Shown in pieces: positions 15,852 to 60,517 of a stretch of 64,000 bases of DNA. The DNA lies in IMG/VR virus record IMGVR_UViG_3300033145_000849, positions 1 to 64,000 of that record. One strand, written 5' to 3'. Positions within the stretch are counted from its first letter, which is position 1. Each line of letters begins with the position of its first letter. The notes under the pieces are model-generated. The model made no database searches and was not told the origin of the DNA. It saw only the letters and a program-made list of their open reading frames with translations. The stretch comes from a virus. The translations under genes and the position numbers were made by a program.

Positions 15852-15852
15852 G

Positions 15853-16818: not shown

Positions 16819-16827
16819 GACTTACTC

Positions 16828-19105: not shown

Positions 19106-19116
19106 AGATAGTTCCT

Positions 19117-21161: not shown

Positions 21162-21162
21162 C

Positions 21163-22134: not shown

Positions 22135-22145
22135 AAACTACTCCA

Positions 22146-23453: not shown

Positions 23454-24195
23454 TATAAAACTCCTTAAGACCTGGAGGCAAAGAAAGTGTTACTACTTTA
23501 ACATCATCTATCTCTGCTCCTTCTTCAAAGTTGTTATTACTACCAAAACAATAATCTGTTAAAGGCGCGTACTCATCCTTCTCATGAAACATGGCATCTA
23601 AAACATTGATTCTATTGACCATATGTTTAGGGTTACCTACCCTAGAGCAATGATAGATTCTACATATATCATTGATAATTGTACGAGAAGGGAACATGTC
23701 ATCTGGTTTCATAAACATTCCATCTCCAACTATCTCAACCTTTTCAGTTAGAGAACACATTCTAGGAATAGGGAGAGTCCAAGACGTCTTGATGTGATTA
23801 AGATCCCGCCAGAAGTATGTCCTTTCAAGAGACAGGTTGAAGAACCTCTCTCTATATATATATCTGACGTCAAGGATTTCCCGAGGATGAACTATCTCGT
23901 CTGCTTGTAGATACAAAACACTATCAAATTTTTGATCTAAAGCTTCTTTAATACATTGATTAGCTCTAAAGGCTAAATCATGTCCCATGTTAAGCGTCCA
24001 ATCCCATACTGAATCTAGGATAGTCAGTTTTTTAGGATCAGCTAAACTTCTTAATCTAGCTAAAGTGTCGTCTCTATTGTTAAGGTCTGTAGCAACGAAG
24101 ACATGGTCACAACATGCCAACAGATTAGTAATACAAACCTCGAAAGGATAGTTAAGCTCTACACCATTAGCTACTAGGGTAGCTCCAGCTAACAT
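23446..24195 (-). CDS. GT2-like glycosyltransferase
   Basis: LNYPFEVCI, DDTL, YLQADE, IYH. Confidence 0.75.
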   Translation of the reverse strand: MLAGATLVANGVELNYPFEVCITNLLACCDHVFVATDLNNRDDTLARLRSLADPKKLTILDSVWDWTLNMGHDLAFRANQCIKEALDQKFDSVLYLQADEIVHPREILDVRYIYRERFFNLSLERTYFWRDLNHIKTSWTLPIPRMCSLTEKVEIVGDGMFMKPDDMFPSRTIINDICRIYHCSRVGNPKHMVNRINVLDAMFHEKDEYAPLTDYCFGSNNNFEEGAEIDDVKVVTLSLPPGLKEFYNA

Positions 24196-24204
24196 TTGTT
24201 CCCC

Positions 24205-24858
24205 TTATTTCATATCAATATTAGCAACAGCAGGAATCGCACGCTCTACCCCATCAGCAACATCTTGTTCGTAAAGACCTCTATAGAGCTCGTTCCTATC
24301 TTGAAGTCGCTGGTCACTCTTAAACACATCTTGGAAATGTTCTATGTGAGGACCCTTCTCGGATGTTCTAATATTTCCTTCTTTTATATTGAGTCCTTCA
24401 TGGACTCGGTTCTCGTAAGTAATGCTACCTGGATTGTTTCTAATAAATCTGTATTGCCAATCAGGATATGCGTCCTGCTCTACTTGTATGGTACGTCCTA
24501 TGTCTCTCCAACGCCTACGAGGAAGTCCCCATGCTACACATTCTGCATCATCCATAAGATCTATTAAAATTGAGAGCTCTTCAGGTGCAAGTATCTCGTC
24601 AGTATCTAGTCCTAGAATCCATGGCTGAGTAGCAAGGTGAGCTGTTAGGGTTCTAATGCTTCCAAAATCTGTGAACCCTACCTTGTATACTCTTGCTCCA
24701 AGTTCCGTTGCAATTTTAACTGTGTCATCAGTAGATCCTGTGTCTACAAGAATAATTTCAGACACCAAATGAGACACACTGTTTAAGCATAGCCATATAG
24801 AATCTTGATTGTTCTTGGCAAACACAGCTAAAGTAATAGGTAGGCCAGCACTTGTCAT
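24205..24858 (-). CDS. GT2-family glycosyltransferase
   Basis: ILVDTGSTDDT, DFGSIR, LDTDE, YPDWQYR, RVHE. Confidence 0.9.
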   Translation of the reverse strand: MTSAGLPITLAVFAKNNQDSIWLCLNSVSHLVSEIILVDTGSTDDTVKIATELGARVYKVGFTDFGSIRTLTAHLATQPWILGLDTDEILAPEELSILIDLMDDAECVAWGLPRRRWRDIGRTIQVEQDAYPDWQYRFIRNNPGSITYENRVHEGLNIKEGNIRTSEKGPHIEHFQDVFKSDQRLQDRNELYRGLYEQDVADGVERAIPAVANIDMK

Positions 24859-25982
24859 GTAGAAAAACTCTCCTTAATTTCTTTGAGACGATTGACCATT
24901 AGTTCCCCAATCTTAGTTGAATTTAGTTCGTTTCTAATGGTTGCAACAGCATTCTCTGCTTTGGTAGCTGCTAATTGTCTGTCTTCGAATACTGTTCTCA
25001 TAAGCCTCCTTAGATGCATAATGTTAGGATCAGCCCATGTCATATGACCTTTGTAATTGGGGAAGATCATACCAGCTACTGGAGTCTCTTGATAGTCAAT
25101 TAAAAAACTATTATCGTCATTCATAAACTCTAGATTACCACTGTAATTAGTAGAGATTACAGGCTTTCCGTAAGACATTGCCTCGGCGTGAGGGATACCA
25201 AATCCTTCAGCTCTGTGAGCCAAGACAAAACAATCTCCTTTCATGTGAAGACCTTTCATCTCTGCTGCTGTCATAAGGTTTCCAAAAAAGACTAGGGGAG
25301 GAAAGCCTCTGTCCATATTGAGAGACTTTTTTATCCTTGCTATATCTTCTTTAATAATAGCCTTCTCTGCTTGAGAAGTATTGACCCTGTAGGCTTTTAA
25401 GGCAAAGACAACCTTCTCGTCAGGTTTAAACTCGGTAAGATACGCTTTCATTAAAGCCATTGGATTTTTTCTTTCTAGCCATTGAAAGATAGAATAGAAA
25501 ACAAAAGTATCATCACTGATATCTATGTTAACAGGTTCAGCATCGGAAGTATCAGGTAGAGAAACAATATGAGGTATCCTATAAACAGGCTTTTTTACTC
25601 CAGAGTTTTTAAATACTTCTATGTTCCATTTTGAAGGAACCCATATTTCGTCCATCATATTACAAAGATCTATCCATTGACTAGGAAGAGTATCTGTCTC
25701 CCATGCTGTATAGGCTATGTTGTAGCATTGAGGATCTCTGTAAGTAGGAAAATTCTCTGGTGTAAGATGCACAATTTGAATTTCAGGATCTAATTTACGG
25801 TCAATGAATGGAGTAATTTTTTCTTGAAGAGTTCCATGAGATACTTTTTGGTGTTCAAAAGAAGTTACCCTAACCGTAAGATCTATGTCTTTTCTATCAA
25901 TAAGAGCTGAAATATAGTTTCTTGCAGCGGTAGCATATCCAGAAACATCCAACACCGCGCCTACGTATTTGAGTCTAATCAT
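24855..25982 (-). CDS. GT4-family glycosyltransferase
   Basis: SGYATAAR, TAWETD, ERKN, RAEGFGIPHAEAM. Confidence 0.92.
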   Translation of the reverse strand: MIRLKYVGAVLDVSGYATAARNYISALIDRKDIDLTVRVTSFEHQKVSHGTLQEKITPFIDRKLDPEIQIVHLTPENFPTYRDPQCYNIAYTAWETDTLPSQWIDLCNMMDEIWVPSKWNIEVFKNSGVKKPVYRIPHIVSLPDTSDAEPVNIDISDDTFVFYSIFQWLERKNPMALMKAYLTEFKPDEKVVFALKAYRVNTSQAEKAIIKEDIARIKKSLNMDRGFPPLVFFGNLMTAAEMKGLHMKGDCFVLAHRAEGFGIPHAEAMSYGKPVISTNYSGNLEFMNDDNSFLIDYQETPVAGMIFPNYKGHMTWADPNIMHLRRLMRTVFEDRQLAATKAENAVATIRNELNSTKIGELMVNRLKEIKESFST

Positions 25983-27343
25983 AATACTTCCCCTTCTGAA
26001 GATGTTTTAAAAGCAATCTTGGGATTAGCATTTTGAATTTCTGCAAAAAGCTTAACCCATTTCTTACAAATGTTATTCCAAGAATATTTGTTGGTAAACT
26101 TAGTGGCTCTCCCAATGATCTCTTGTCTTTGGGTAGAGCTATTAACCCTATCGGCTTGCCAATCTTGATGGCACTGTACCATAGTATCTACAATATCTTC
26201 TATTCTACCTGTCCGTCTAAAACCAGAGTTATCTACAAAACTCATTTCATGACAAGGATATACATATCCCCTGTTTCTGTTTCCACCTACTAGCTCTGGA
26301 GTAGTAGTATTGTTAGGAACAATAACAGGTATACCAGCTGCCATGGCTTCTACGATTGTAAGACCAAATCCCTCTCCAAGATGAGTGGTCATATATGCAT
26401 CTCCACAATTGTACAGCTTGTTTAAAATAGAAGTGGTATAGCCAAGAGCTGCGTTGTAGTTAGTAGGAAAGAGTACATCTGTTTTAGGGTTTAGTCCTAG
26501 TTCCTCAAGACAGATTTTCAAGTCTATAAGGTGACCACTGTTTGAACCATCTTTAGTTACAGTGTGTAGATAAAGAAGAGAATCGGGAACTTGCTTACGA
26601 AACTCAGAGAAAGCAAAGATTGTTTTAGCTATGTCTTTTCTTAAACTATTTCGATTCACATTGACTATAACAAAAGTGTCATCACTCTTGAGACCTAAAT
26701 ATTCTTTTCTGTATTTAGTTTTTGCTTCCTGTCCAATAGGTTTAAAGTTTTTTATATCAGATCCATGATAGATAACGTCTGTAGGATGAACATCAACAGC
26801 TTCGCTAGCAGTTTTAGCAAAATTAGTATAAGCAACTGAACGGTCTGCTATTTTGATCATGTTAGAAGCAGCAGAAAGAAGCCTACAATCAACAGGATAA
26901 TAATAAATCAGTTTGAAAACTGGGCGCTTGGCTTGATGTTTAGCTTGTCGAACCTTATTGATATGGTGACTTATTTGTTCAACTACAAAGGTATCATTGA
27001 CAACAAAGACAATATCGTAATCCTTTTTTCTTAAGGCATCTATAAACATTTGGTTTCCAAAAGCATCTTTAGGATTTCCTAGTTTGGAAGGTACGATACA
27101 GTAGGGAATTTTATTCTTGTCGTAAAAATCACCAAAATAGTTAATAGCTAGTTGATCGATTTCATATAGTCCTGTCCTGTAAAGAGCATTTAGGATGTGT
27201 TTAGATACTACCCCAAAGCCTGTTGTTGCTGTAACACTGTCGCTCCATACTAATACTTTTTGCTTTCTTCGAGGCCTAGTGCTACTTAAGGGAGGTAACT
27301 TAAGAGAGTTAGTAGGTTGCATTATTAAACTATTGGATGCCAT
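25979..27343 (-). CDS. GT4-family glycosyltransferase
   Basis: TTGFGVV, NRNSLRKD, GEGFGLTIVEAMAAGIP. Confidence 0.92.
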   Translation of the reverse strand: MASNSLIMQPTNSLKLPPLSSTRPRRKQKVLVWSDSVTATTGFGVVSKHILNALYRTGLYEIDQLAINYFGDFYDKNKIPYCIVPSKLGNPKDAFGNQMFIDALRKKDYDIVFVVNDTFVVEQISHHINKVRQAKHQAKRPVFKLIYYYPVDCRLLSAASNMIKIADRSVAYTNFAKTASEAVDVHPTDVIYHGSDIKNFKPIGQEAKTKYRKEYLGLKSDDTFVIVNVNRNSLRKDIAKTIFAFSEFRKQVPDSLLYLHTVTKDGSNSGHLIDLKICLEELGLNPKTDVLFPTNYNAALGYTTSILNKLYNCGDAYMTTHLGEGFGLTIVEAMAAGIPVIVPNNTTTPELVGGNRNRGYVYPCHEMSFVDNSGFRRTGRIEDIVDTMVQCHQDWQADRVNSSTQRQEIIGRATKFTNKYSWNNICKKWVKLFAEIQNANPKIAFKTSSEGEVL

Positions 27344-27352: not shown

Positions 27353-29479
27353 CTATAAGACTTCGTATCGTTTTTCTTTTACTGCTTCCTTAAAGAAGTT
27401 AACAAGGTGAGGGTCTGAAGGTAGAAGCTCATCGTTTAGCATTGCTTCTATCGTGTCTATCGTCAAATCAACTTCTAGTCTTTTCCAGCAAGTATGACTC
27501 ACTTTGCAAGGCTGGTACCAACAATCCCAAGTAGCTAAATTACTTATAGTAAAAGTAGTATCTTTATCTACAGTGATATCATAAACATATTCATCCTTTC
27601 TTGATGATATTTCTATTTTAGAAATAGGAGTATAAATAAAATTGTCATCAGCTAATGATCGACTAAAGTCTTTGTCTTCTGATACATATATTCTATAGAT
27701 TATAGAATTCTTTTTGAAATTAGTATCTCTAACCCTTTTGTAAACATGTACATATTTACCGAACCTAGTATAAATCTCTTGAAGGCCATAAGCAATCTGT
27801 TTTGAAGCGGTAGAATAAACTCTATTTTTTTTATCCCTATATCCATCACCTTCAAAATATCCATCTAGAAAGGCTTCTAAGTCTTCATCTTTACATCTGA
27901 AATAACAAGTAGGAATTTTTTTAGTTGGAGCACGAGTTTTAATCCCGAATAAAGCTTTTATCTCATTAAACAAAGCCTTATTAGAAACTTTAACCACTAA
28001 AGAATTCCCTTTACTATTTTTTTCTACCTGAAAAACATGGATGTCAAAAGCTTTAGCTAGAACATTTCGGATATCTTTCAATAATTCTTGTTCATCTCCG
28101 CCAATAGTTAAAATAGTTTCATAACCCCGAGAATTTGCAGTAGGTCCTTTTAAATATCCTTCAGCCATATATAACCCATGAAACCAACATCTTTCCTTAC
28201 GGAAATCCTCTTTAAAGGGTAAGTTTTCAACAAATTTATTCCGAGGAATACATAAAAAATCTCTTTCTTTTAATTCCTTTGCTGGAATCCATTCTGGATT
28301 TGTTTCATATTTACTTGACCTAAAAACATCCATATACTGTAAGCTAGCTAACATTTTATGATCTTCTGTAATAGTAATAGGTTCATTCTTGCCTACAACA
28401 GTAATGTCATACAGCTCTCTGTCTCTTCTAAGATTTTTATGGAGTTTAGTTACTTTATGTAGCTGTCCTGATTGAGTTTTTACATTATCTCCTATTTGAA
28501 TGTCTTTAATCTCTTTGTATCCATCATGAGTTAATACAAAACTTTCTTCTACCACACAAGGACTGCAAGATAAGTCTTGCCCTGCCCAGATAGCAACAGC
28601 TTCTGGATAGTAATTGATTCTAGCGTTGGGGTCTGTAGGGCCAAAGAGCGACACTGTCTTCTTTCCTAATGCTCCAGCTAAGTGGAGTATAGACGAATCA
28701 GGACACAAGACTAGATCACAAAAGTTCATAACTGCAGTAATCTTTCTAACGTCCCAATCTCTGAGTTCTAAGATGTCTGCAAATCCCCACTCTGTTGTAT
28801 AGTTGTCTGAACCATGAGTAAAGACAATAGCTTTGAGATCTCGTCTCTTCATTAACAGTTGAGCTAAAACTTTCTGAATTGTTTCAGTTGGAGCATCTCT
28901 TTGACTAGCACTAGAGAAAGGTTGTACTAGTATGATCTTACGCTTTCCTATCTGTGATTCTTCAATCATTTGCTGTGCAGCCTCAAGCTCTCCTGGTTGA
29001 AAAGCATAGTCTAAAGTAACGTCTTTCAGAGGAAAGACTCCAGCATGCTTAGCAAACAAATCTATTCTATTAACAGGAACTGCATGAGGTTTCTCGTGGT
29101 ACACACAAGGACAAGTCAAGTCTATTACACCATCATAATCCGATGTTTGAATCTCCCGCCAGGGAATGACATTTTTAATATCTGGATGCCCATACAGAAC
29201 TTTTGGTAAAGCTCCTTCCAGGTATTCAAAATCTGTACCATAGTCTATAGATATCTTATATTTATTAGCAATCGCTTTCACAGTAGGTAGAGTCATTAGT
29301 ACATCGCCCATTCCACCTTGTGTTCTGGTAATTGCAATCTTTGGTGCTTGGCCTATACGAAGACCATCTATTCTTTTTAAAATTTGAGAAGGTTGACTAT
29401 ACAGAGATGCAGTAATGTTGGGAATTGTTTGCTTTGTTGGCACCAATATCCCACGTCTATTCGGTTTCAATATTCTCAT
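27353..29479 (-). CDS. GT9 (heptosyltransferase-like) glycosyltransferase containing an intein
   Basis: GGMGDVLMTLP, PDSSILHLAGA, LFGPTDP. The C-terminal CSPC..C..C motif is split by the intein. Spliced product about 363 aa. Confidence 0.92.
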   Translation of the reverse strand: MRILKPNRRGILVPTKQTIPNITASLYSQPSQILKRIDGLRIGQAPKIAITRTQGGMGDVLMTLPTVKAIANKYKISIDYGTDFEYLEGALPKVLYGHPDIKNVIPWREIQTSDYDGVIDLTCPCVYHEKPHAVPVNRIDLFAKHAGVFPLKDVTLDYAFQPGELEAAQQMIEESQIGKRKIILVQPFSSASQRDAPTETIQKVLAQLLMKRRDLKAIVFTHGSDNYTTEWGFADILELRDWDVRKITAVMNFCDLVLCPDSSILHLAGALGKKTVSLFGPTDPNARINYYPEAVAIWAGQDLSCSPCVVEESFVLTHDGYKEIKDIQIGDNVKTQSGQLHKVTKLHKNLRRDRELYDITVVGKNEPITITEDHKMLASLQYMDVFRSSKYETNPEWIPAKELKERDFLCIPRNKFVENLPFKEDFRKERCWFHGLYMAEGYLKGPTANSRGYETILTIGGDEQELLKDIRNVLAKAFDIHVFQVEKNSKGNSLVVKVSNKALFNEIKALFGIKTRAPTKKIPTCYFRCKDEDLEAFLDGYFEGDGYRDKKNRVYSTASKQIAYGLQEIYTRFGKYVHVYKRVRDTNFKKNSIIYRIYVSEDKDFSRSLADDNFIYTPISKIEISSRKDEYVYDITVDKDTTFTISNLATWDCWYQPCKVSHTCWKRLEVDLTIDTIEAMLNDELLPSDPHLVNFFKEAVKEKRYEVL
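27524..28558 (-). mobile_element. intein with LAGLIDADG homing endonuclease (345 aa)
   Basis: Block A CVVEESFVLT, block B ITEDHKML, LAGLIDADG motifs FHGLYMAEG and FLDGYFEGDG, block F VYDITV. Ends ...NLATWD before a +1 Cys. Visibly AT-richer than its flanks. Confidence 0.92.
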
Positions 29480-29497: not shown

Positions 29498-30553
29498 TTA
29501 TAGTTGTGAGGCAAGTAAACATCCACGTGCAACTGCTCTAAGAGGATCCTCTGCTAGCCTAATCTCCTTTATCTCAAAGGGTAGTTGGTCAGTAAGGGGG
29601 CTAGTCTCTGGATCATTAAACCATTCAAGACGTTCCTTGAACTTGTTTACAAATCCTTTTGCTCGACTAGTTCCTCCAGCAGCGATGATAGGAATAGGCT
29701 GCGTAAACTTAGGTAGATCGCCAGCTTGATTAAGCCGTCTAATCATATGTTCGATAGTATAATCAATTAGCCTGACATAGTAAAGAGAAACTGCACTGAT
29801 AATTGGATTGTTAGGATTTTCATAACCAATGTTGAACTCAGTGTTCTCTTTTTCTAGCTGAACTACTGTATCAGGTTGAGCTGTAGCAACAGAGGCCATA
29901 CGATCAATCCAATCTCCACTCTTAGTAGTGCTCCAGTGACACACAGCCTCTCCTGAACTCATTAGACAAGCATTAACCATACCAGCACCGAAAGATAAAC
30001 AACAGCCGCTGTAGTCTTCCTTCTCGAGCTCTGAATAGCATATAGCTTCTGCTTCAGGAAGAGGAACAGGAGAAAACCCTAGGTCTTTAATGTCATTGTT
30101 CAATGCGTCAGTATGAAAACCAACGTCAAAGTTATCAGAGGTTTGATCTACTGGTTGAGCTGGTACTGAATAAACAACCTTCTCGCCTTCAGCAAGAGGT
30201 TTTTCTAAGACTTCCTTAAAGATATGGCGAAGGATTCGGCGGGCTTGCTTCTCTTTAGGAGAAATAACTCCACGAACTAGAGGTCTATTAGCAGACTGAT
30301 GTCTTTCCACTGCTCTCTCTATAGCATCCATACCCACTACAATAAAACTACCATCTGCTTCAGAGAAATACTGCTGACCTTTCAGTCCTTTTTCAATCAT
30401 TTGTCTAGCAATAGTAGTAGCTCCCTTAATCCTAAAGAAAGCATCCCTGAATTCGGTATAACGAATCTTTCCACCTTCGTCAAACTCTCTAGATGTAATG
30501 ATAAAACTAGTTCCAACATCAAGACCTCGTCCAGAAATAAATTTATCAGCCAT
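29498..30553 (-). CDS. actin-fold ATPase (MreB/FtsA/MamK/ParM superfamily)
   Basis: Phosphate-1 GLDVGTS, connect-1 EAEA, phosphate-2 SFGAG, adenosine IAAGGTS, connect-2 DPLRAVARG. Confidence 0.88.
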   Translation of the reverse strand: MADKFISGRGLDVGTSFIITSREFDEGGKIRYTEFRDAFFRIKGATTIARQMIEKGLKGQQYFSEADGSFIVVGMDAIERAVERHQSANRPLVRGVISPKEKQARRILRHIFKEVLEKPLAEGEKVVYSVPAQPVDQTSDNFDVGFHTDALNNDIKDLGFSPVPLPEAEAICYSELEKEDYSGCCLSFGAGMVNACLMSSGEAVCHWSTTKSGDWIDRMASVATAQPDTVVQLEKENTEFNIGYENPNNPIISAVSLYYVRLIDYTIEHMIRRLNQAGDLPKFTQPIPIIAAGGTSRAKGFVNKFKERLEWFNDPETSPLTDQLPFEIKEIRLAEDPLRAVARGCLLASQL

Positions 30554-44001: not shown

Positions 44002-46281
44002 TTATCCAGCTGTAGTTTTAATAGCCACCGTGGGGCCTGTGGATTCATATCCATCTGTATCAATAGCTCCTATCTTTACATAGTGTGTAGTTAACAGACT
44101 AAGCCCTGTAACTGTTGTGCTATTGCCGCTTGAAATATCTGCCATAGGAGAACTATTCCAGGTAGTAAATAGCTTATCTTGTTCAACGGAATAGTAAGCA
44201 TTATAAGTAATACTAGGTCCGTAACTTGGCCAATCAAAACTTACCATACCAGAACCAGGTGTTGTATCTATAATGGTAGGATCGATTCCATAAGTATCTA
44301 CAACTGCATAGCCTCCACCCTTCATGTGTTTATCAACAACATTTTTAATCTGGTCAATCGTAAGATCTCCACCATAGTCTGCAAGAAGAGACTGTGGAAC
44401 TTCTGCTTTAAAAGCTCCGACTCCTGGATATGGTCTCTGAGAATTACGATCCCAATACCAATCTATCTCTTTCTGTTCAAGCCTAGCGTCGTCAACGGAA
44501 TCGGCTTTGATTCCACCGCCCTGAATCCTAACATCAAAATTAGCTAAAGATTCTGGAGCAGTATGTTCTCCAACGTAAAGATCAGCTAAAACTAAAAATC
44601 TAGAGTTCTCTTCAAAGTTAGATAACGGAGTGCCAATTAAGTCTCCAGATTGTGTAACTGTAGAATCTAGAATAACACTCTCTACTGTATATTTGTCTAT
44701 GAAAGAAAATTCGTCTAGATAGTCTAAATTCACTCCTGATACTCTAGACTGTAATCCAGAAGTAGTAGACTCTATGTCATAGTAAAAGTCATGAGTTGGC
44801 AAACCATCACTAGTAAAATCATCTGCTAAAAGCTTTGTTGTTGATGGATCTATGCCAGAAGAGTTCTCGTCTGCTTGACTGGAGTAAATTATTTTTCCTA
44901 GAGTATCGATAACCAAATAGTAAACCGTACTCTCTAAGTCTCCAGTAGCAACATATTCTGGAGAGACATAAATGGCGATACGTTGTGTAAGTACATCTAG
45001 ATTGTTTACTGGATTGAAATCAATCTGAGTAAACTCATATTCTGTTTCTTCTGCATAATAGCTAACACTAACTTGGTCTGTTGCAGCAATTGGACCCTCT
45101 ACTTCAAGAAATCCATTTAGAGAATCAGCTGACAAAATACCATCTTCATAGTTGATGCTACCAGAATAATTGGTACCAACAATGGAAGGGTTATTGCTGT
45201 ATATATACTTTAAAGCATTGTACTTGTCTCTAACAACAACTTCTGTATACAGGTATAGGCCCGCAGATATTACAATTCCTTTAGGAAGCTTAACTAGGTT
45301 TTCCATAAGCCAAATAGCTTTCTGGTCTCCCTTGAATTTGTAGGGAGGAAAAGGGGTAAATGTTTGACTATTAAACTCAGCTACACGGTACTTATAGTTT
45401 TTCCAAGTGTTGCCATTAGTTTGAAGGGAAGTGATGAACTGTCCGTTTGTAAGGCTTACATTCCATGGAGCTGATAAGTCTAAGGCCGAGGGAGGCAATA
45501 TTTTTATTCTAGAACTAGAGAGTTCTTTATATGCATATCTCTGTACGATAGGCAGGGTAATTACAAACTGTTCTCCACCAACTTCTTCTTCGATCAGATA
45601 TTTTCTACGACCATCTGTATTGATATTAAACTCTGAATCTAAATCATCAAAACCAGCAGGTAAATAAGCGGACGTATTATTAAGTAATTCATGATAAATA
45701 ATAACCGATTGATTAGTACCACTGCCAGTACGAACTGTATATTGAATATATGTAACTTCAAATTCATCAGTAGCATCATTGTATACGTTTTCAAGATTAT
45801 TAAAAATCTCAGCTGTTGTGCTGTCTAGGTAATAGTCTACTACGTCTATGGAAGTAAAGTCTTTATCCGTAAACTCTACTGCTAGAAGAGTTGCATCGGT
45901 ATCGTCAGGGTCATAGTTCGCCAGAGTATGTACATAAAATAAAGGGGTTTCTGGTTTAGTAGGTGTCTCTGTAGTAAAAATATGAGTAACAACAAACTTG
46001 TCTACACTTAAGGTAAGGGTCTTTGTTGTAGCAGTAAAAATGTTAGTGGCAGAAGGAACTCTATTCTGGTTTAAAGAAGTACTTCTGTCTGAAATAAACA
46101 GATTGTTACCAGGAGTAGATTCTTGTCCAACAAGATAAGCTATATTAATATTATCTTGATTTGTTAGGGTTCTATAAACAACTTGTTCATGTCTCTTCTT
46201 AATATTAAGACGAGTGTCTGTATCTACCGTAACCGGCACTGCACTAACTTGAAACTGTTGTCCTAAAATACTAGTAGACAA
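44002..46281 (-). CDS. virion structural protein with C-terminal fibronectin type III-like domain
   Basis: DVRIQGGG...YWD...PYPG motif. FN3-like C-terminus VSFDWP..YNAYYS..VTGLS...YVKIGAID. Confidence 0.65.
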   Translation of the reverse strand: MSTSILGQQFQVSAVPVTVDTDTRLNIKKRHEQVVYRTLTNQDNINIAYLVGQESTPGNNLFISDRSTSLNQNRVPSATNIFTATTKTLTLSVDKFVVTHIFTTETPTKPETPLFYVHTLANYDPDDTDATLLAVEFTDKDFTSIDVVDYYLDSTTAEIFNNLENVYNDATDEFEVTYIQYTVRTGSGTNQSVIIYHELLNNTSAYLPAGFDDLDSEFNINTDGRRKYLIEEEVGGEQFVITLPIVQRYAYKELSSSRIKILPPSALDLSAPWNVSLTNGQFITSLQTNGNTWKNYKYRVAEFNSQTFTPFPPYKFKGDQKAIWLMENLVKLPKGIVISAGLYLYTEVVVRDKYNALKYIYSNNPSIVGTNYSGSINYEDGILSADSLNGFLEVEGPIAATDQVSVSYYAEETEYEFTQIDFNPVNNLDVLTQRIAIYVSPEYVATGDLESTVYYLVIDTLGKIIYSSQADENSSGIDPSTTKLLADDFTSDGLPTHDFYYDIESTTSGLQSRVSGVNLDYLDEFSFIDKYTVESVILDSTVTQSGDLIGTPLSNFEENSRFLVLADLYVGEHTAPESLANFDVRIQGGGIKADSVDDARLEQKEIDWYWDRNSQRPYPGVGAFKAEVPQSLLADYGGDLTIDQIKNVVDKHMKGGGYAVVDTYGIDPTIIDTTPGSGMVSFDWPSYGPSITYNAYYSVEQDKLFTTWNSSPMADISSGNSTTVTGLSLLTTHYVKIGAIDTDGYESTGPTVAIKTTAG

Positions 46282-48916: not shown

Positions 48917-51382
48917 CTATGGAATTCCTGAAGTTGTCACATCATCTACTATGTCATCCCAGTAGGTTACCTCAGATGCTATAGGATTGATATCTAAGAA
49001 AGTAACACCATCTAAAGCAGCTGCAAGAGCCAGGTTGTCACTTCTAAGTCTCCAACCTAATGGGACTTTTTGATCATTTGCTATGATACCACTCAAGGTG
49101 GCAGAAACCTCATCTATATGAACTTGGTTAATTTGGTCTAACACCCAGAGTCCACTTAAATAATTGGGGATAGATAACTTAACATCTATCGTGTTACTTA
49201 GGATATCCTGATTTCGTCTTTCATTATATACCGACGCCTGTAATGTCACTGTAGTAGGAGACACTAGGAAATATGAATGCAGAATACCACTAGGAACAGG
49301 TCCAAGAGTACCACTGGGAACAGGAATTTCATAAGTGGAAGTATCGAATATTACATCATATTCTCCTCCACCAGCAGCAATAACATCAATAGGTTGCATC
49401 GGAATATAGCAACCACTAGCAAAAGTATGAGGATTTAGCGCTTGGCCATCGTAAGCAGATACAATAACTTTACGACCCATACCCATGTCTGTCTGGAATA
49501 TACTGGGTAACGGAAGGTTACGTACCTCTCTATGATTGTATTCCCAGTCCTTTGCTCCGGTAGTTATTGCTCCACTGCCACCTATGTCCATACCTGTGGA
49601 ACCATAAATACTCTCATTAGTAAAAAACTGTCTATAGTATTCTGTAGTCTGAACAGTAGACGAATCTTGGTCCAGAGTGGTTTCCATAAAGCCTTGTAGT
49701 GCGTCATCTACCTGTACTTGATACAAGAAGATGTCGTCTACGTCGCCTTCTACAAGAATGTTTTCAGTGTGAAAAGTAGTAGTCTGAGTAACACCTGTAT
49801 AAATAGGGGTATTGTCTATTGAGTGTCCAGCAGCAGTAATATTCTCGCCAATTTCATTGACCCCACGAGGAGGATGATAATAAGACCTGGCTTCTCCAAA
49901 TTCATCTGTTACGGAACTAGATGTAGAAGCTAATGTGCCAAAAGATCCAGGAGCTGGAACACTGGTGATGTAGAAAGTAACTTCCTGGTCTTCAAGAACA
50001 TCGCCTCTTCTGTCTTTAACCGTAGCAATAATAGGAGCATAGGCGTTTCCGATTGCTAGTGGGCCATATACATCTGTTTGAATCTCTGGTAGTTGAGCAG
50101 TTAGTTCAATAGTTGATGGGTCTTCTAGTTCTGTAGACAAGTAAACAAACCCTTGACCACTTCTACGATAGATAGGATTAATGTTTGCCTCTGTAGCTAT
50201 TATAGTATTGGAAGAAGCTTGAGGTTCATATTCAATCCTGAATGTTTTCCAGTAGTTAGCTAAAATATAGTTACCTGCAGCAGGTGTATTCTGATCAGAG
50301 AGGTCGGGGTCGCCGAACTCTAATATGCCCAAATCGTAATCTACTTTAACTTGATCTACAGCAAGACCAGAAGAAAAAGGAATTGATTCCCATGAAGAAA
50401 TTCCACTATAAGAAACTGAATCAGGGATAGTAGTAGAAGAGTATATGAGCACACCTTGTGAATTATCTACTGGAGAATATTTTAAATGGAATTGTTGACC
50501 AGCAGAACCATCAGAAATACCTAGTTGTTCTAGAGCAGGAGAACCAACTTCGCTTCCAGCTTGCTGATTAAAAAGAGCAACTACAGGGCCGCCATCAGAC
50601 ACTCCACTGTAAATAACCTGAAATTCCTTCTCGTCTTGATCAATCAAAGACCAGTAAGTAACACCAGTAACAGTATTGTAAGTATCCTGTCTAACCAAGT
50701 CGTCATCTCTTTGACCTGTAAACAAAATCTTTTTCCTATATCTATCAAAGAGATCATACTTTCCTAAATTAGGATTCCATTCGTATTGTTCTGCTCTTAC
50801 AGGAACTCCTACTTGAGGAATAGAGTCTAAATCTACCTGATTGAACCCAGAAATCGTAAGATTATAATTCTCAGAAGCTGTTGTTATTCCACTATAAGTT
50901 GGATAAGCTACTTCAGAATCATCACTATAGAGATATCCTTCATCTTCAAAATCATAGTAATATCCATGCTGAATTTCAGGAGCCCAAATGTTATATAAGC
51001 TTCGGGTTTGAAGACCAGAGGAAGGAACTAGCTCAACGTCTATAAGCTCAAGATCCCTATTGCTACCAATGCCAGACTGGAAGTAAGATGTAGTAATGCC
51101 CGAGGTGGTAGGATCCCAATTAGCAGGAACAAATGCTGCCCAATTGTCGGTTGTTTCCCCGAACCAGACGCGCTCATCCCATTTCCAACCAGTATCATCC
51201 TCGAACCAGAGGTCTTCAGACCTAGCCGATATTACAGGTGTATTATATGTAAGAACTCCAGATCCGATCACGGGGCCCACCTCAAATTGATGACATATCG
51301 AGCTTAACCCAGATGTACTAGTTTGTACATCATATTGCCATCCCCAGGGACGAATTCCATATGGTTGAGTACCCCAAGCCAT
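48917..51382 (-). CDS. virion structural protein with Ig-like (invasin/Big1-type) segment; S-G-hydrophobic rich
   Basis: IIATVKDRRGDVLEDQEVTF...TDEFGEA, and VDYDLGILEFGD. 18 SG dipeptides by hand count. Confidence 0.7.
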   Translation of the reverse strand: MAWGTQPYGIRPWGWQYDVQTSTSGLSSICHQFEVGPVIGSGVLTYNTPVISARSEDLWFEDDTGWKWDERVWFGETTDNWAAFVPANWDPTTSGITTSYFQSGIGSNRDLELIDVELVPSSGLQTRSLYNIWAPEIQHGYYYDFEDEGYLYSDDSEVAYPTYSGITTASENYNLTISGFNQVDLDSIPQVGVPVRAEQYEWNPNLGKYDLFDRYRKKILFTGQRDDDLVRQDTYNTVTGVTYWSLIDQDEKEFQVIYSGVSDGGPVVALFNQQAGSEVGSPALEQLGISDGSAGQQFHLKYSPVDNSQGVLIYSSTTIPDSVSYSGISSWESIPFSSGLAVDQVKVDYDLGILEFGDPDLSDQNTPAAGNYILANYWKTFRIEYEPQASSNTIIATEANINPIYRRSGQGFVYLSTELEDPSTIELTAQLPEIQTDVYGPLAIGNAYAPIIATVKDRRGDVLEDQEVTFYITSVPAPGSFGTLASTSSSVTDEFGEARSYYHPPRGVNEIGENITAAGHSIDNTPIYTGVTQTTTFHTENILVEGDVDDIFLYQVQVDDALQGFMETTLDQDSSTVQTTEYYRQFFTNESIYGSTGMDIGGSGAITTGAKDWEYNHREVRNLPLPSIFQTDMGMGRKVIVSAYDGQALNPHTFASGCYIPMQPIDVIAAGGGEYDVIFDTSTYEIPVPSGTLGPVPSGILHSYFLVSPTTVTLQASVYNERRNQDILSNTIDVKLSIPNYLSGLWVLDQINQVHIDEVSATLSGIIANDQKVPLGWRLRSDNLALAAALDGVTFLDINPIASEVTYWDDIVDDVTTSGIP

Positions 51383-57666: not shown

Positions 57667-59286
57667 TTAATCATAAACTCTAACTTGATCGTAATTTTCC
57701 CTAAAATACAGAATCTTCTTATTGATGTCTGCTAACATAACGTCATAGTGACAATTGATTTGATGCTTGTCTCCAGTGTCGTCTAGAACCCAAAGCTTAT
57801 TCTCACTATCAAAATCAACTCCTACAATCTTATTATTGTCTGGTATAATTCCAGTTAAACTAAATTCAGCTGTTGGTTGTTTATAAACTACAGATACAAT
57901 TCTCTGATCTATAGAGGATGATTCATCTGTATAAGAGGTTTCAAGACTATAGATATGATTGCCTCGTTGACCTAAAGTAAAGATATCGCCAGCTCTTAAG
58001 TTTCTGTTTATAGGCTCTCCAAAAGTCCAAGATGTTCGATCTGTATGATAGGTAGTTTCTAAGCCTTCTTCGATACTGTATTTATTACCATCAGGTTTTT
58101 CCACCCATACTCTATGAGCCACAACTCCTATTACAGGTCTTCTCCAGTGATAGTCAAGTTCTATTTGTCCACTCATTAGAACAGTATTGCTACTTGGTTC
58201 TATAACACAATTGGCTTCATAGTCCTTAGAAATCAAAGCAATAGTTTCAGGATACGGAAGATCAGCACTGTACAGATATAAATTGCCTGAAGAAACTACC
58301 CAAATATTATCGGACCAAGGTTCAACTGCTAAGTCTTCAGGAACTATATTCTCACTGTTTGTATCAAGAAGCTCTATGCTAAGCAATGTGCTCTTATCAA
58401 TCCAGCCGTCAAGTCGTAGATCTAATTCGTTAGCATTGTACTTAAGTAAATCGAGAGAGTATTGACCAGTAAAAAGTCCTTTGCCTAGGGTCCAGAAAAG
58501 AGGCATGGCGTTACCGTCTGAGTTGGCAGCCAGCTGATATGCACTAGCATAATCTATAGCATTAAAATTAGCTGAAGAGACCTCTATGTATGTGTCGGCA
58601 GCCTCTTCAATCCCATAGACCTTTACTTCGTCTATTGTGTGGTAGTCCCTAACGGTATGTTTAATTTCGTCATGAACAAAAGGTATTTCTTCTGTAACGT
58701 TTTCGCCGGCTCTTGTCGTACCAGTAATATGAACGATTCCTCTACGAGGAAGATTCTCATCAAAACCAAAATAAGTCGTACCACCTGAAGCAGTGACCCA
58801 CAAATAGTTATCTAAGTGTAGCAACCCTGAAGGAGTAAGAGGATCAAAAGGAGAACTACTTGCTTGTCCACTTGCTAATAGATGAGCTCCAGTAACCGTA
58901 GTCTCCAGGCTTAGTCTATCTGGAACAGTGTGATACCAAAACTGTTCCACACTGTTATCTGTAGCTATTGTTACATCGTATGATGTTCCATCGAGCATTC
59001 CACTTACTGTTGGAGCAGTGAATAACATCTCGCTAGCATCATCATCTTCCGTAAACTGATATGTTTTAGGAAGCTTGAAACGATAGTAAAGATCTATGTC
59101 TGAGACGATAGAGGTGGGAAGGAAATAGTTGGCACCAATACGCTCGATTTGTTTACGTAGATCATCTAGTAAAACACCAGGTCTATTGAGAAGCTGGAAT
59201 CCAAGACTCTGCTCATCAAGCCTGATGTTAGACCAAGGTGGAAATGTATTTACTATTCCTTGAGTAGAAAGACCTTTAACTGGCAC
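57667..59286 (-). CDS. putative baseplate protein
   Basis: 539 aa, directly after baseplate J. FPPWS..R N-terminus. GTG start. Confidence 0.6.
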   Translation of the reverse strand: MPVKGLSTQGIVNTFPPWSNIRLDEQSLGFQLLNRPGVLLDDLRKQIERIGANYFLPTSIVSDIDLYYRFKLPKTYQFTEDDDASEMLFTAPTVSGMLDGTSYDVTIATDNSVEQFWYHTVPDRLSLETTVTGAHLLASGQASSSPFDPLTPSGLLHLDNYLWVTASGGTTYFGFDENLPRRGIVHITGTTRAGENVTEEIPFVHDEIKHTVRDYHTIDEVKVYGIEEAADTYIEVSSANFNAIDYASAYQLAANSDGNAMPLFWTLGKGLFTGQYSLDLLKYNANELDLRLDGWIDKSTLLSIELLDTNSENIVPEDLAVEPWSDNIWVVSSGNLYLYSADLPYPETIALISKDYEANCVIEPSSNTVLMSGQIELDYHWRRPVIGVVAHRVWVEKPDGNKYSIEEGLETTYHTDRTSWTFGEPINRNLRAGDIFTLGQRGNHIYSLETSYTDESSSIDQRIVSVVYKQPTAEFSLTGIIPDNNKIVGVDFDSENKLWVLDDTGDKHQINCHYDVMLADINKKILYFRENYDQVRVYD

Positions 59287-59290: not shown

Positions 59291-60517
59291 TTACCGCCTA
59301 ATGTAAGCCCGTTCAAAAACAATCGGGTTAATTACTGAGGGTTCTATAATAACTCTTTCGTCATCAACTGGATAATAATCACCCAGTAGTTTCTGACGAA
59401 CCTTATTGTCGTCTAACCTGCTTTCTTTATAGATATAAAGCTCTTCAATAGGATCGCCAGGTTCACCAATATTAGCTATGTTGTCATCAATAGCAAATAG
59501 TTCGCTCACCATCCTGTTAAGAACAAAGGTTTCTCCAATATCTAACTCGTTAACATAAGCCGTAATGACGTCATCTAGAAGGCTTTCAATTTCATCCAGT
59601 TCATCATTTGTAAGCTTTTGTGAATAGTGAATAGTAGCTCTTATGGTAAGCCCAGATTCCTTGGGTCCTCGAACATATATAATGTCACCAAGAGCTTGAA
59701 CCTTAAAGACATTGGCTTCTATTGCTTCGATTAAACTATTTGACACTGTGGGTGTTACAGACTTAACAATAATACCAACAGTTCCAATTCCACGATATCT
59801 AGGAGTAATAATGACATCAGCTACTCCACTAGTGGAAAGAGCAGCTAGTCTTATTGCTGTAATATTTGCAGCCTCTGCCTCTAACACTCTGTTAACTATA
59901 CGATATCTATAGTTGTCGTCACTTTCAAATGATTTACCATTTGCTATAGGATGAACATTTGTAACCTTAAGAGTTTCATTAGTATAATCTGCATAGTTGG
60001 TAAATGAATGATGGACTAAGACTCCTGTTCCGAGGTTAGATTCATCTCCTGGAACTGAAGCTTCAGCAGATACATACACCGTTGAAGCACTAGCGGACAC
60101 AATAGAATTAGTGGTAGTTCTGTATATAACACCAGCATTGTTTACTTCTGTAGAGATAAGCTCGCCAACAGGAAATATAAAATCTGCTCCATTGTTAACA
60201 TCTCCAAGGGTCCCACTGTCCACGTATAGCTTAAGGACTTCCATGCTAGACGTCACAGAAGCAGACTCAGCGACTTTTCTCTCTACACTTAGTAGAGACC
60301 CTATCAGGTCAAGAAACTGTCCTGTAGCAGCAGAGACAAACGCTCTGGCAAGGTTCAAGTCAAAGATATCATAGGCTTCTTCTAGACGCTTATTAGATGC
60401 CTCAAGAAGAGCTCTTGCTTTCGCTCCAGGCGAAAGTCGTGTGATGTTAGTGGTATCAGCCAGACTTTCCACTGAATCAACAGTTAAGTCTTGAAAACTA
60501 CGAGCGAATAAAGGCAT
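59291..60517 (-). CDS. baseplate J/gp47-like protein
   Basis: SPGAKARALLE, ATGQFLDLIG, ESDDNYRYR, SGVADV, RGIGTV, YVNELDIGE. Confidence 0.88.
   Translation of the reverse strand: MPLFARSFQDLTVDSVESLADTTNITRLSPGAKARALLEASNKRLEEAYDIFDLNLARAFVSAATGQFLDLIGSLLSVERKVAESASVTSSMEVLKLYVDSGTLGDVNNGADFIFPVGELISTEVNNAGVIYRTTTNSIVSASASTVYVSAEASVPGDESNLGTGVLVHHSFTNYADYTNETLKVTNVHPIANGKSFESDDNYRYRIVNRVLEAEAANITAIRLAALSTSGVADVIITPRYRGIGTVGIIVKSVTPTVSNSLIEAIEANVFKVQALGDIIYVRGPKESGLTIRATIHYSQKLTNDELDEIESLLDDVITAYVNELDIGETFVLNRMVSELFAIDDNIANIGEPGDPIEELYIYKESRLDDNKVRQKLLGDYYPVDDERVIIEPSVINPIVFERAYIRR

What the first reader, a model, noticed from the sequence alone, without database searches (positions are those of the whole stretch)
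48917..51382. S-G-(I/L/V/F) motif strongly enriched in a structural protein: candidate O-glycosylation sequon
Hand count: 18 Ser-Gly dipeptides in this 821-aa protein, 14 of them followed by I/L/V/F (e.g. TSGL, TSGI, SSGL, YSGI twice, ISGF, YSGV, PSGI, LSGI, C-terminal TSGIP). The reverse GS occurs only 8 times, and the similarly Ser-rich 1050-aa protein at 37516-40668 has only 3 SG. SG also recurs in 44002 (8), 57667 (6) and 33687 (6), and TASG occurs in four structural genes (31529, 33687, 35318, 57667). The sites are scattered rather than in tandem repeats, which fits repeated independent selection for a short motif. Inference: this is the acceptor signal for the adjacent phage GTs, analogous to Ser-Gly attachment sites in proteoglycans.
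Basis: partly seen in the sequence, partly recalled or inferred. Interest (0 to 1): 0.85.

Follow-up and report, generated by a model that had tools for sequence, protein, structure and literature searches.

The report
Ser-Gly tag on phage baseplate proteins
Two unrelated baseplate proteins of this uncultured large phage, and their relatives, carry the short motif Ser-Gly-hydrophobic almost three times too often, which looks like a tag read by a phage factor, most plausibly its own sugar-transferases, although no sugar has been seen.

Summary
The 821-aa protein has 18 SG (6.4 expected) and 14 SG[ILVF] (1.6 expected); 0 of 5000 shuffles reach either count. The trait belongs to the family: 49 homologs pooled give SG 808 vs 300 (2.69x), while GS is 0.90x and TG 0.99x.

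The enrichment is not unique to this protein. The unrelated 539-aa protein next to baseplate J (57667-59286) shows the same 2.69x in 75 homologs. The 44002 family shows 1.69x in 63 homologs. Eleven other shared families lie at 0.18-1.25x.

Some orthologs fold without the motif. Low-SG members sit in at least 4 separate places on the tree. In the one complete genome of a low-SG lineage (G004), all three families are at expectation. That genome also lacks the GT4 pair, GT2 and the sugar dehydratases found next to GT9 in the four SG-rich relatives examined.

This fits a tag read in trans, most plausibly an O-glycosylation acceptor. No chemistry supports that reading, and only one low-SG genome could be read for its GT genes.

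The scan has noted similar serine motifs, with a different sequence, in other phages.

The parts
48917..51382 (-). 821-aa baseplate-module protein (P0001), the SG-rich protein of the finding. Its N-terminal 99 residues are not confidently modelled, residues 161-382 resemble a baseplate protein, and an Ig-like Big_1 domain lies at about 420-520.
   Evidence: SG 18 vs 6.4 and SG[ILVF] 14 vs 1.6. Family of 49: SG 2.69x. AF2 model mean pLDDT 75. VIA-align: invasin Z 12.3, and Streptomyces CIS baseplate chain 9gtp_2G Z 10.2 over model residues 161-382. Pfam Big_1 is below its cut-off, 23.8 vs 34.9 bits.
57667..59286 (-). 539-aa protein directly downstream of the baseplate J gene. It is a second family, unrelated to the first, with the same SG enrichment.
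   Evidence: Window copy: SG 6 vs 2.6, GS 0. 75 homologs: SG 511 vs 189.7 (2.69x), TG 0.66x, SG[ILVFM] 4.5x. hhalign against the P0001 family gives probability 0.3%.
44002..46281 (-). 759-aa structural protein, a third family with a milder SG enrichment.
   Evidence: Window copy: 8 vs 4.2, p = 0.043. 63 homologs: SG 422 vs 249.1 (1.69x), GS 1.0x, SG[ILVFM] 3.07x.
59291..60517 (-). Baseplate J-like wedge protein. It fixes the neighbourhood as the baseplate module and is not itself SG-enriched.
   Evidence: Pfam Baseplate_J 1.8e-26; PHROG 6 baseplate wedge subunit. Family SG 0.93x.
27353..29479 (-). GT9-family (heptosyltransferase-like) glycosyltransferase interrupted by a LAGLIDADG intein. It is the first gene of the sugar island after the structural module.
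   Evidence: Pfam Glyco_transf_9 3.6e-15, LAGLIDADG_3 and Intein_splicing. A GT9 gene follows the actin-like gene in G002, G004, G007 and G010.
25979..27343 (-). GT4 glycosyltransferase, first of a conserved pair.
   Evidence: Pfam Glycos_transf_1 5e-11. The best solved relative is chlorovirus glycosyltransferase B736L (3oy2, E 5.9e-6); streptococcal Gtf1 (4pqg) matches weakly at E 0.0029. The pair is present in G002, G007 and G010 and absent from G004.
24855..25982 (-). GT4 glycosyltransferase, second of the conserved pair.
   Evidence: Pfam Glycos_transf_1 4e-11; PDB matches.
3690..24858 (-). Nucleotide-sugar island. It holds three DegT aminotransferases, 4,6-dehydratase/epimerases, hexapeptide and GNAT acyltransferases, methyltransferases, a B12-radical SAM enzyme, an APS kinase and two GT2 genes. 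All products are predicted soluble.
   Evidence: Pfam. No 19-residue segment with mean Kyte-Doolittle hydropathy of 1.8 or more in the 27 ORFs between 4233 and 29479.
29498..30553 (-). Actin-like protein (Volactin family) between the structural module and the GT genes. It was used as the synteny marker.
   Evidence: Pfam Volactin 1.9e-52. The order actin-like gene then GT9 is seen in G002, G004, G007 and G010.

Best explanation
Proposed explanation: S-G-hydrophobic, often preceded by A, V, P or T, is a short acceptor tag on a few baseplate proteins of this phage clade. The tag is read in the host cytoplasm by a phage-encoded factor. The most likely reader is the soluble glycosyltransferase set encoded right after the structural module: GT9 plus two GT4, fed by the phage's own nucleotide-sugar pathway. 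That set would O-glycosylate the serine before or during baseplate assembly.

Shown here:
- The motif is enriched, ordered, and specific for Ser and for Gly.
- It occurs in two unrelated families and, more mildly, in a third.
- It is dispensable for the folds.
- It is absent from all three families in the one complete relative that lacks the GT4 pair and the sugar pathway.

Inferred, not shown:
- That the reader of the tag is a glycosyltransferase.
- Which enzyme starts the glycan.
- What sugar is attached, and what it does. Masking the baseplate from host defences or enzymes, or tuning adsorption, are guesses.
For: 1. Size and specificity. In the P0001 family (49 sequences) SG is 808 vs 300 (2.69x), GS 0.90x, TG 0.99x and SA 0.98x. 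SG[ILVFM] is 6.2x and [AVPT]SG[ILVM] 10.4x. Ser makes up 37% of X in X-G-[ILVFM] (4.4x background). The figure is 7.7% in 322 other ORFs of G000 and G004, and 10.4% in the 22 other structural ORFs of the window.

2. A second family. The 539-aa family is unrelated (hhalign probability 0.3%) and shows the same 2.69x in 75 homologs; 66 of 75 have a ratio of 2 or more. The 44002 family shows 1.69x in 63 homologs.

3. Unbiased scans. SG is the top over-represented dipeptide in the three proteins pooled, in each of the 6 SG-rich phages tested. In G004 it is at expectation, 10 vs 9.3. Of 16 ortholog clusters shared by at least 4 phages, 11 lie at 0.18-1.25x.

4. The motif is not needed for the fold. 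Low-SG members (ratio under 1.6) sit in at least 4 places that well-supported branches keep apart. At the conserved columns these members keep G-hydrophobic but replace Ser with L, D, E, R or N.

5. Gains at new places. Distant homologs carry 2-5 SG in the 20 shared columns and 9-22 elsewhere. Lineage-specific inserts are also SG-rich: 14 vs 5.6, 8 vs 2.5, 12 vs 3.8 and 7 vs 2.2. Both serine codon classes occur at sites 164, 178, 259 and 698.

6. Link to the GT genes.
- G000, G002, G007 and G010 are SG-rich (18/6.4, 17/5.4, 27/9.0, 14/6.8). Each has the actin-like gene followed by GT9, GT4 and GT4, plus an NDP-sugar dehydratase or epimerase.
- G004 is a complete genome with terminal repeats. 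It has a tandem GT9 but no GT4, GT2 or epimerase in six-frame searches or among its 220 ORFs. Its three orthologs are at 4/3.2, 2/2.1 and 4/3.9.
- In a second lineage both families are low: P0023 9/6.7 with P0086 1/2.0.

7. A cytoplasmic acceptor is plausible. None of the 27 island ORFs has a membrane segment, and no flippase or polymerase was found.

8. Precedents. Phage-encoded GTs glycosylate mycobacteriophage virion proteins (passages in PMC11256854 citing Freeman 2023). The GT9-like enzyme TibC heptosylates serine only, at an NSGG site among others (passages in PMC4358343).
Against: - No sugar, mass shift or enzyme activity is known for any of these proteins.
- The GT correlation has only one low-SG genome whose GT genes could be read. 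The GT content of the second low lineage could not be read.
- G004 still has a GT9, so GT9 alone does not track the motif.
- GT4 genes also occur in 11 of 33 broader actin-encoding phage records. Only one of those has the P0001 family, so GT clusters are not tied to this protein.
- In the 539-aa family the excess sits in about 12 conserved columns. Rare-column SG (55) equals rare-column GS (54), so there is no turnover signal there.
- The SG ratios of the two families correlate across 22 phage pairs (Spearman 0.47, p = 0.027), but not once the two low lineages are removed (0.30, p = 0.20). For 44002 against P0001 the value is 0.23, p = 0.37, in 17 pairs.
- Ser at the conserved columns is often replaced by D, N or E, as at a turn position.
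- The phage GT9s match only LPS heptosyltransferases, and weakly. TibC does not appear at E up to 10, or up to 1 for the window's copy.
- The sugar island could instead serve DNA or host-surface modification.
Confidence: 0.45

Rival explanations
1. The tag is read by another trans-acting factor, not a glycosyltransferase. Candidates are a different serine modification, an assembly chaperone, or a decorating or partner protein that docks on exposed S-G-hydrophobic turns of several baseplate proteins.
For: Everything that argues for a reader acting in trans applies equally here. That includes enrichment in two unrelated families, loss in both families together in G004 and apparently in the P0023/P0086 lineage, and dispensability for the fold. 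The three families are neighbours in one module and probably in one assembly. The island also holds an APS kinase and many methyltransferases.
Against: No candidate reader other than the GT set was seen to differ between G004 and the SG-rich genomes, but this was not searched for systematically. Docking motifs are usually few and fixed in position, whereas here sites number 12-27 per protein and move between lineages.
Confidence: 0.25
2. The motif is structural and inherited. X-S-G-hydrophobic would be a favoured tight turn leading into a beta strand in these beta-sandwich proteins. It would be fixed early in each family and kept by ordinary purifying selection, with no reader at all.
For: 12 of the 18 sites of P0001 lie in columns that are SG in at least 10 of the 55 aligned sequences. 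G-hydrophobic is kept even where Ser is lost. Ser is often exchanged for D, N or E. 9 of the 14 sites outside the stretches with pLDDT under 50 lie within 3 residues of a strand, and 10 of 14 are coil. In the 539-aa family the whole excess is in conserved columns.
Against: - Other beta-rich structural proteins of the same phages show no such bias. 11 clusters lie at 0.18-1.25x, and Ser before G-hydrophobic is 1.1-1.3x in controls against 4.4x here.
- Orthologs in at least 4 lineages do without the motif.
- Lineage-specific inserts are also SG-rich.
- Two unrelated families reach the same 2.69x and lose the excess together in G004.
Confidence: 0.2
3. The pattern is mostly an artefact of shared ancestry and post hoc choice. 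A few ancestral SG columns would be counted many times, and a single divergent genome (G004) would be over-read.
For: Homologs are not independent observations. The G004 contrast is a single branch. Alignments at 26-31% identity may misplace homologous sites.
Against: 43 of 49 homologs are individually enriched at p of 0.01 or less. The window protein alone gives 0 of 5000 shuffles. SG is the top dipeptide of 400 in each of 6 phages. Inserts absent from P0001 cannot be misaligned ancestral sites.
Confidence: 0.1

Closest known systems
Virion O-glycosylation of mycobacteriophages by phage-encoded glycosyltransferases (Che8 and relatives; Freeman et al. 2023, Cell Host Microbe). Seen only as cited in passages of PMC11256854; the paper itself is not held.
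   Same: A tailed phage encodes its own soluble glycosyltransferases, and virion proteins are the proposed acceptors in the host cytoplasm.
   Different: In that system the sugars were demonstrated, and the modified proteins named in the passage are major capsid proteins. Here nothing is demonstrated. The candidates are baseplate proteins, the sites are a scattered three-residue motif, and the enzyme set is GT9 plus two GT4 with a large sugar-nucleotide island. What I recall about the acceptor sites in that system comes from memory, not from a call.
Bacterial autotransporter heptosyltransferases (BAHT: TibC, AAH) acting on TibA and AIDA-I (PMC4358343; passages read).
   Same: Hyperglycosylation of a dedicated beta-rich substrate at many sites in the cytoplasm. 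Serine is modified and threonine is not. One mapped site is N-S-G-G. According to that paper the catalytic domain is of the heptosyltransferase (WaaC-like) kind, the kind that Pfam assigns to the phage GT9 here.
   Different: The phage GT9s give no TibC match. Only LPS heptosyltransferases appear, with E values from 1.4e-5 to 0.03. The beta-barrel, thumb and four-cysteine iron finger of TibC were not tested. GT9 persists in G004, where the motif is gone. The substrates here are baseplate proteins, not autotransporter beta-helices.
Ser-Gly attachment sites of proteoglycans, modified by xylosyltransferase
   Same: A serine followed by glycine as acceptor.
   Different: That is a eukaryotic secretory-pathway enzyme, and as I recall its sites have acidic flanks. 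Here the flanks are A/V/P/T before the motif and I/V/L after it. The resemblance is one of motif only.
Chlorovirus glycosyltransferase B736L (PDB 3oy2) and streptococcal Gtf1 (PDB 4pqg, 5e9t).
   Same: These are the closest solved sequence relatives of the 454-aa GT4 (E 5.9e-6 and 0.0029-0.01). One is a virus-encoded GT. As I recall, the other is a serine O-GlcNAc transferase of serine-rich adhesins.
   Different: The matches are weak and, for Gtf1, cover only the nucleotide-binding stretch 307-364. They do not show the acceptor type.
Serine motifs noted earlier by this scan in outer baseplate and fibre proteins of marine and freshwater phages, several of them described as T4-like ([ST]-[GAS]-S and [LIV]-S-[AG]; AI notes, unchecked).
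   Same: A short serine motif enriched in a few outer baseplate proteins, with the same reading offered and a link to phage GT genes.
   Different: The motif is different. [ST][GAS]S is only 1.36x, 1.14x and 1.26x in the three families here, while S-G-hydrophobic is 6.2x, 4.5x and 3.1x. The phage group is also different: its baseplate J is distantly like those of Bacillus phage 0305phi8-36 and relatives.

Membership tests
Phage-encoded virion O-glycosylation system | The phage encodes glycosyltransferases and, where needed, sugar-nucleotide enzymes. | tested here: met
   GT9, two GT4, two GT2 and a nucleotide-sugar island at 3690-29479.
Phage-encoded virion O-glycosylation system | A glycan is covalently bound to a virion protein (mass spectrometry or glycan stain). 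| not testable with these tools
   The phage is uncultured and no proteomic data are held.
Phage-encoded virion O-glycosylation system | The presence of the acceptor sites goes with the presence of the enzymes across relatives. | tested here: inconclusive
   4 SG-rich records have GT9-GT4-GT4. The 1 complete low-SG genome lacks GT4, GT2 and epimerase. Only one low-SG genome was readable.
Phage-encoded virion O-glycosylation system | The acceptor serines lie on the surface of the assembled particle. | tested here: inconclusive
   Only secondary structure was available. 10 of 14 sites outside the stretches with pLDDT under 50 are coil, against a coil share of 0.52.
BAHT (TibC/AAH) protein heptosyltransferases | Heptosyltransferase-type (GT9-like) catalytic domain. 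| tested here: met
   Pfam Glyco_transf_9 3.6e-15 in the window copy. Also found in G002, G004, G007 and G010.
BAHT (TibC/AAH) protein heptosyltransferases | Closer in sequence to TibC/AAH than to LPS heptosyltransferases. | tested here: inconclusive
   phmmer against the PDB lists WaaC, WaaF and 3tov only, and no TibC chain. The E limit was 10 for the G002 and G004 copies and 1 for the window's copy. The matches are short and weak.
BAHT (TibC/AAH) protein heptosyltransferases | N-terminal beta-barrel, beta-hairpin thumb, four-cysteine iron finger and dodecamer (features as given in PMC4358343). | not tested
   Several cysteines flank the intein insertion point, but no structure or alignment to TibC was made.
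BAHT (TibC/AAH) protein heptosyltransferases | The substrate is an autotransporter beta-helix encoded next to the enzyme. | tested here: not met
   The neighbours are phage structural genes. The SG-rich proteins are beta-sandwich baseplate proteins.
Contractile-tail baseplate protein | Encoded in the baseplate module and structurally like a known baseplate component. | tested here: met
   The gene lies 7 genes downstream of baseplate J on the same strand. Model residues 161-382 align to Streptomyces CIS baseplate chain 9gtp_2G (Foldseek probability 1.00; VIA Z 10.2, 98 residues, rmsd 2.2). Its exact role in the baseplate is unknown.
Bacterial Ig-like domain group 1 (Big_1) | A match to Pfam PF02369 over its cut-off, or a clear fold match. 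| tested here: inconclusive
   Pfam gives 23.8 bits against a cut-off of 34.9. The fold match to invasin and intimin has Z 12.1-12.3 with 92-99 residues aligned. 8 of the 48 homologs carry the precomputed Pfam hit.

The most novel reading that the evidence does not exclude
A clade of uncultured large myoviruses uses a defined three-residue sequon, S-G-hydrophobic, to O-glycosylate several baseplate proteins with its own GT9-GT4-GT4 enzymes and home-made unusual sugars. Lineages that lose the enzymes let the sequon decay. Together with the different serine motifs noted elsewhere in this scan, this would mean that lineage-specific virion glycosylation codes are common among environmental phages.
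Probability: 0.4. Interest if true: 0.8.

Novelty: new variant of a known kind. Interest (0 to 1): 0.6.

Why it matters
Glycosylated phage particles have so far been shown for few phages, and no short acceptor sequon has been defined for them. I found none in four searches of the held papers; these were few and do not amount to a full review.

If S-G-hydrophobic is such a sequon, glycosylated virion proteins could be predicted from sequence alone in metagenomes. The large and puzzling sugar islands of environmental phages would gain a testable target. A compact tag plus enzyme set for cytoplasmic O-glycosylation would become available.

If the reader of the tag is something else, the finding still marks a selected, dispensable, multi-protein surface feature of the baseplate that needs an explanation.

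Tried and rejected
- A DNA-level cause is rejected, because both serine codon classes are used (8 TCN, 10 AGT).
- A general property of the virion proteins is rejected. The 23 other structural ORFs of the window sum to about 62 SG vs 56 expected (my addition of the rows), and 11 shared clusters lie at 0.18-1.25x.
- A shared domain between the two main families is rejected (hhalign probability 0.3%).
- The motif reported elsewhere in the scan, [ST][GAS]S, is only 1.1-1.4x here.
- No TibC-like match was found for the GT9s.
- Searches that gave nothing or little:
  - P0001 against 50,697 phage records gave no match.
  - The genome-contig scan found no relative.
  - P0023, P0040 and P0042 were not found in viral contigs.
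  - An alignment of distant homologs was too divergent to scan with.
  - The ESM Atlas gave only Ig-like rows with TM of 0.25 or less.
- Metagenome records behind L017, L020, L023 and L027 are not held for whole-record searches. As a result, the GT content of the SG-rich 165-kb record could not be read.
- 33 broader actin-encoding phage records were searched. Only 1 has the P0001 family, so they could not enlarge the comparison.
- A maximum-likelihood tree did not finish in 300 s, so the tree used is FastTree.
No model of that protein was seen.
- Complex prediction was not used, because enzyme-substrate pairs are poor cases for it.
Full report
WHAT THE WINDOW IS

All long ORFs lie on the minus strand, and G+C is 38.9%. 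In transcription order the window runs as follows:
- A tail and baseplate module from about 64000 down to 30553, including baseplate J at 59291-60517.
- An actin-like gene of the Volactin family at 29498-30553.
- A GT9 gene split by a LAGLIDADG intein (27353-29479).
- Two GT4 genes and two GT2 genes.
- About 20 kb of nucleotide-sugar genes: three DegT aminotransferases, dehydratases and epimerases, acyl- and methyltransferases, a B12-radical SAM enzyme and an APS kinase.
- A primase-helicase.

The record is a 128,266-bp virus contig, estimated 54% complete, and holds one copy of the gene in question. Its baseplate J and one structural protein are 25-34% identical to proteins of Bacillus phage 0305phi8-36 and relatives. 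The 821-aa protein itself has no match in 50,697 phage records.

The 821-aa product of 48917-51382 has 18 SG where 6.4 are expected, and 14 SG[ILVF] where 1.6 are expected. None of 5000 shuffles reaches either count. GS occurs 8 times. The serines use 8 TCN and 10 AGT codons, so this is not a DNA word. TASG does occur in the four genes named, but 8 tetrapeptides recur in at least 4 of the 25 structural proteins, so that point is weak.

IT IS A FAMILY TRAIT

48 homologs at 26-55% identity were found.
- 43 of the 49 sequences are individually enriched at p of 0.01 or less.
- Pooled, SG is 808 vs 300.4 (2.69x), GS 271 (0.90x), TG 300 vs 302.9 and SA 0.98x.
- After SG come I (2.9x), V (2.4x) and L (1.95x). 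Before it come A (2.6x) and P (1.95x).
- Ser is 37% of X in X-G-[ILVFM]. In 322 other ORFs of two genomes of the clade the figure is 7.7%, and in the window's 22 other structural ORFs it is 10.4%.
- Six sites of the window protein (94, 103, 122, 164, 178, 259) are SG in 26-44 of 49 sequences.
- 12 of its 18 sites lie in columns that are SG in at least 10 of the 55 aligned sequences.

BUT THE MOTIF ALSO MOVES

- SG occupies 189 alignment columns, against 93 for GS and 129 for TG. Even in columns held by 3 or fewer sequences there are 206 SG, against 108 GS.
- The distant homologs P0042-P0049 have 2-5 SG in the 20 shared columns and 9-22 elsewhere.
- In the long homologs, inserts that P0001 lacks are themselves SG-rich: 14 vs 5.6, 8 vs 2.5, 12 vs 3.8 and 7 vs 2.2.
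- At sites 164, 178, 259 and 698 both serine codon classes occur among 14 coding sequences.

Alignment error at 26-31% identity may inflate the count of 'new' columns. The inserts cannot be explained that way.

IT IS NOT ONE PROTEIN

In every related locus the homolog of P0001 is the top or second ORF for SG, and a protein of about 540 aa often comes next. That protein is the gene after baseplate J (window 57667-59286).
- 75 homologs give SG 511 vs 189.7 (2.69x), GS 0.80x and TG 0.66x. SG[ILVFM] is 4.5x, and 66 of 75 have a ratio of 2 or more.
- The two families are unrelated by profile comparison (probability 0.3%).
- In this second family the excess sits in about 12 conserved columns. Rare columns show no excess: 55 SG against 54 GS.
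- The 759-aa family of 44002-46281 is milder: 422 vs 249.1 (1.69x) in 63 homologs, with SG[ILVFM] at 3.07x.
- Of 16 ortholog clusters shared by at least 4 of 10 phages, the other 13 comprise one GT4 (12 vs 5.0), the actin-like protein (14 vs 7.8) and 11 clusters at 0.18-1.25x.
- In a scan of all dipeptides in the three proteins pooled, SG is first in each of the six SG-rich phages tested.

THE MOTIF IS DISPENSABLE

Members with a ratio under 1.6 (L004, L025, P0040, P0014, P0023; P0025 is at 1.6) are scattered on a FastTree tree. Well-supported branches force at least 4 changes. At the conserved columns these sequences keep G-hydrophobic but have L, D, E, R or N in place of Ser.

In G004, a complete 194,631-bp genome with terminal repeats, all three orthologs are at expectation (4/3.2, 2/2.1, 4/3.9). 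SG pooled over the three is 10 vs 9.3.

In a second lineage, P0023 (9 vs 6.7) appears to share a 17,340-bp contig with P0086 (1 vs 2.0).

Across 22 pairs the SG ratios of the two families correlate (Spearman 0.47, p = 0.027). The correlation is carried by the two low lineages: without them it is 0.30, p = 0.20. For 44002 against P0001 it is 0.23, p = 0.37.

THE LINK TO THE SUGAR GENES

The four SG-rich records whose sequence reaches the region downstream of the actin-like gene are G000, G002, G007 and G010.
- All four have the actin-like gene followed by GT9, GT4 and GT4, plus at least one NDP-sugar dehydratase or epimerase.
- The rest of the island varies between them.

G004 differs.
- It has the actin-like gene followed by a tandem GT9, methyltransferases and a pyruvyl transferase.
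- It has no GT4, GT2 or epimerase. This holds both in six-frame searches and in Pfam scans of 220 ORFs of at least 90 aa called within ten pieces; ORFs that cross a piece boundary were not scanned.

The remaining records with a homolog end before the island. Metagenome records could not be searched whole.

Two further limits apply. GT4 genes occur in 11 of 33 broader actin-encoding phage records, of which only one has the P0001 family, so GT clusters are not specific to this protein. About 555 viral contigs encode a relative of the actin-like protein.

None of the 27 island ORFs has a predicted membrane segment, and no flippase, polymerase or polyprenyl-phosphate transferase was hit. This fits a cytoplasmic acceptor, but it also fits DNA or other soluble targets.

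STRUCTURE

The AF2 model (mean pLDDT 75, pTM 0.59) is a chain of beta-sandwich domains, and residues 1-99 are below pLDDT 50. Residues 161-382 resemble a baseplate chain of the Streptomyces contractile injection system (Z 10.2). Residues from about 420 resemble invasin and intimin Ig-like domains (Z 12.3).

Of the 14 SG sites outside the stretches with pLDDT under 50, 10 are coil at both residues, against a coil share of 0.52. Nine lie within 3 residues of a strand, some before a strand and some after one. Coordinates could not be read, so exposure was not measured. The model of the 539-aa protein did not arrive.

WHAT IT MOST LIKELY IS

A purely structural reading explains the conserved G-hydrophobic and the turn-like exchanges of Ser. 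It does not explain four things:
- why serine is preferred 4.4-fold only in these families;
- why two unrelated neighbours reach the same excess;
- why inserts acquire the motif;
- why whole lineages drop it from several proteins at once.

A reader acting in trans explains all of these. The only candidate seen to differ between SG-rich and SG-poor genomes is the GT4 pair with its sugar supply, although I did not compare the genomes systematically for other differences.

Precedents exist:
- Phage-encoded GTs glycosylate mycobacteriophage virions (passage in PMC11256854).
- TibC, a heptosyltransferase-type enzyme, modifies serine but not threonine, at an NSGG site among others (passages in PMC4358343).
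- The closest solved relative of the 454-aa GT4 is a chlorovirus GT; a streptococcal Gtf1 follows weakly.

The phage GT9s show no special likeness to TibC, and GT9 persists where the motif is gone.

My estimates:
- Glycosylation sequon: 0.45.
- Another trans-acting reader: 0.25.
- Inherited structural motif: 0.20.
- Artefact of ancestry and selection of cases: 0.10.

RELATION TO EARLIER NOTES OF THIS SCAN

Twenty-two notes on other genomes report short serine motifs ([ST]-[GAS]-S, [LIV]-S-[AG]) in outer baseplate proteins of marine and freshwater phages, several of them described as T4-like, with the same reading. These are unchecked AI notes and do not count as independent evidence. Their main motif is barely enriched here, at 1.14-1.36x. 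If both sets of findings are real, different phage groups use different tags.

VERDICT

If true, it would be a new variant of a known kind of system, phage virion glycosylation.

Noticed in passing
window 27353-29479 (-); L035:17959-19920 (-): [quoted passage not shown] The distant relative G007 has an intein in its GT9 too, while G002 and G010 have intein-free GT9 genes of 360-365 aa.
   Followed up: partly
window 29498-30553 (-): An actin-like protein of the Volactin family (Pfam 1.9e-52) sits between the structural module and the GT genes. About 555 viral contigs encode a relative, many of them over 100 kb. Its role in these phages is unknown.
   Followed up: partly
window 3690-4202 (-) and 8440-9699 (-): An APS kinase and a B12-binding radical SAM enzyme lie inside the sugar island. 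This hints at sulfated and C-methylated sugars.
   Followed up: no
G000 contig 85212-86993 (-), outside the window (L031): A 593-aa protein has SG 15 vs 6.7 (p = 0.002) but no excess of SG-hydrophobic, and carries a long Ser/Thr-rich linker. It gives a weak PHROG hit to a virion structural protein.
   Followed up: partly
L034:11037-18260 (-) in G007: A 2407-aa protein downstream of the sugar island has SG[ILVFM] 21 vs 6.2 (0 of 1000 shuffles reach it), although SG overall is only 33 vs 26.3.
   Followed up: no
L014:11645-13624 (+) in G004: In the low-SG genome the GT9 is a 659-aa tandem with two GT9 stretches. It is followed by methyltransferases, an FkbM methyltransferase and a polysaccharide pyruvyl transferase in place of the GT4 pair.
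   Followed up: partly
539-aa family (window 57667-59286 and homologs): TG is depleted (122 vs 185, 0.66x) while SG is 2.69x. No explanation was tested.
   Followed up: no
L007:14562-15551 (-) in G004: A reverse transcriptase gene (RVT_1, 4.9e-19) lies in the complete relative. It was not checked for a diversity-generating retroelement.
   Followed up: no
window 53244-55787, 56715-57653, 57667-59286 (-): Three neighbouring baseplate-module proteins share a short stretch matching PHROG 21059. It is N-terminal in 56715 and 57667 and at residues 560-614 in 53244. It may be a common attachment element.
   Followed up: no
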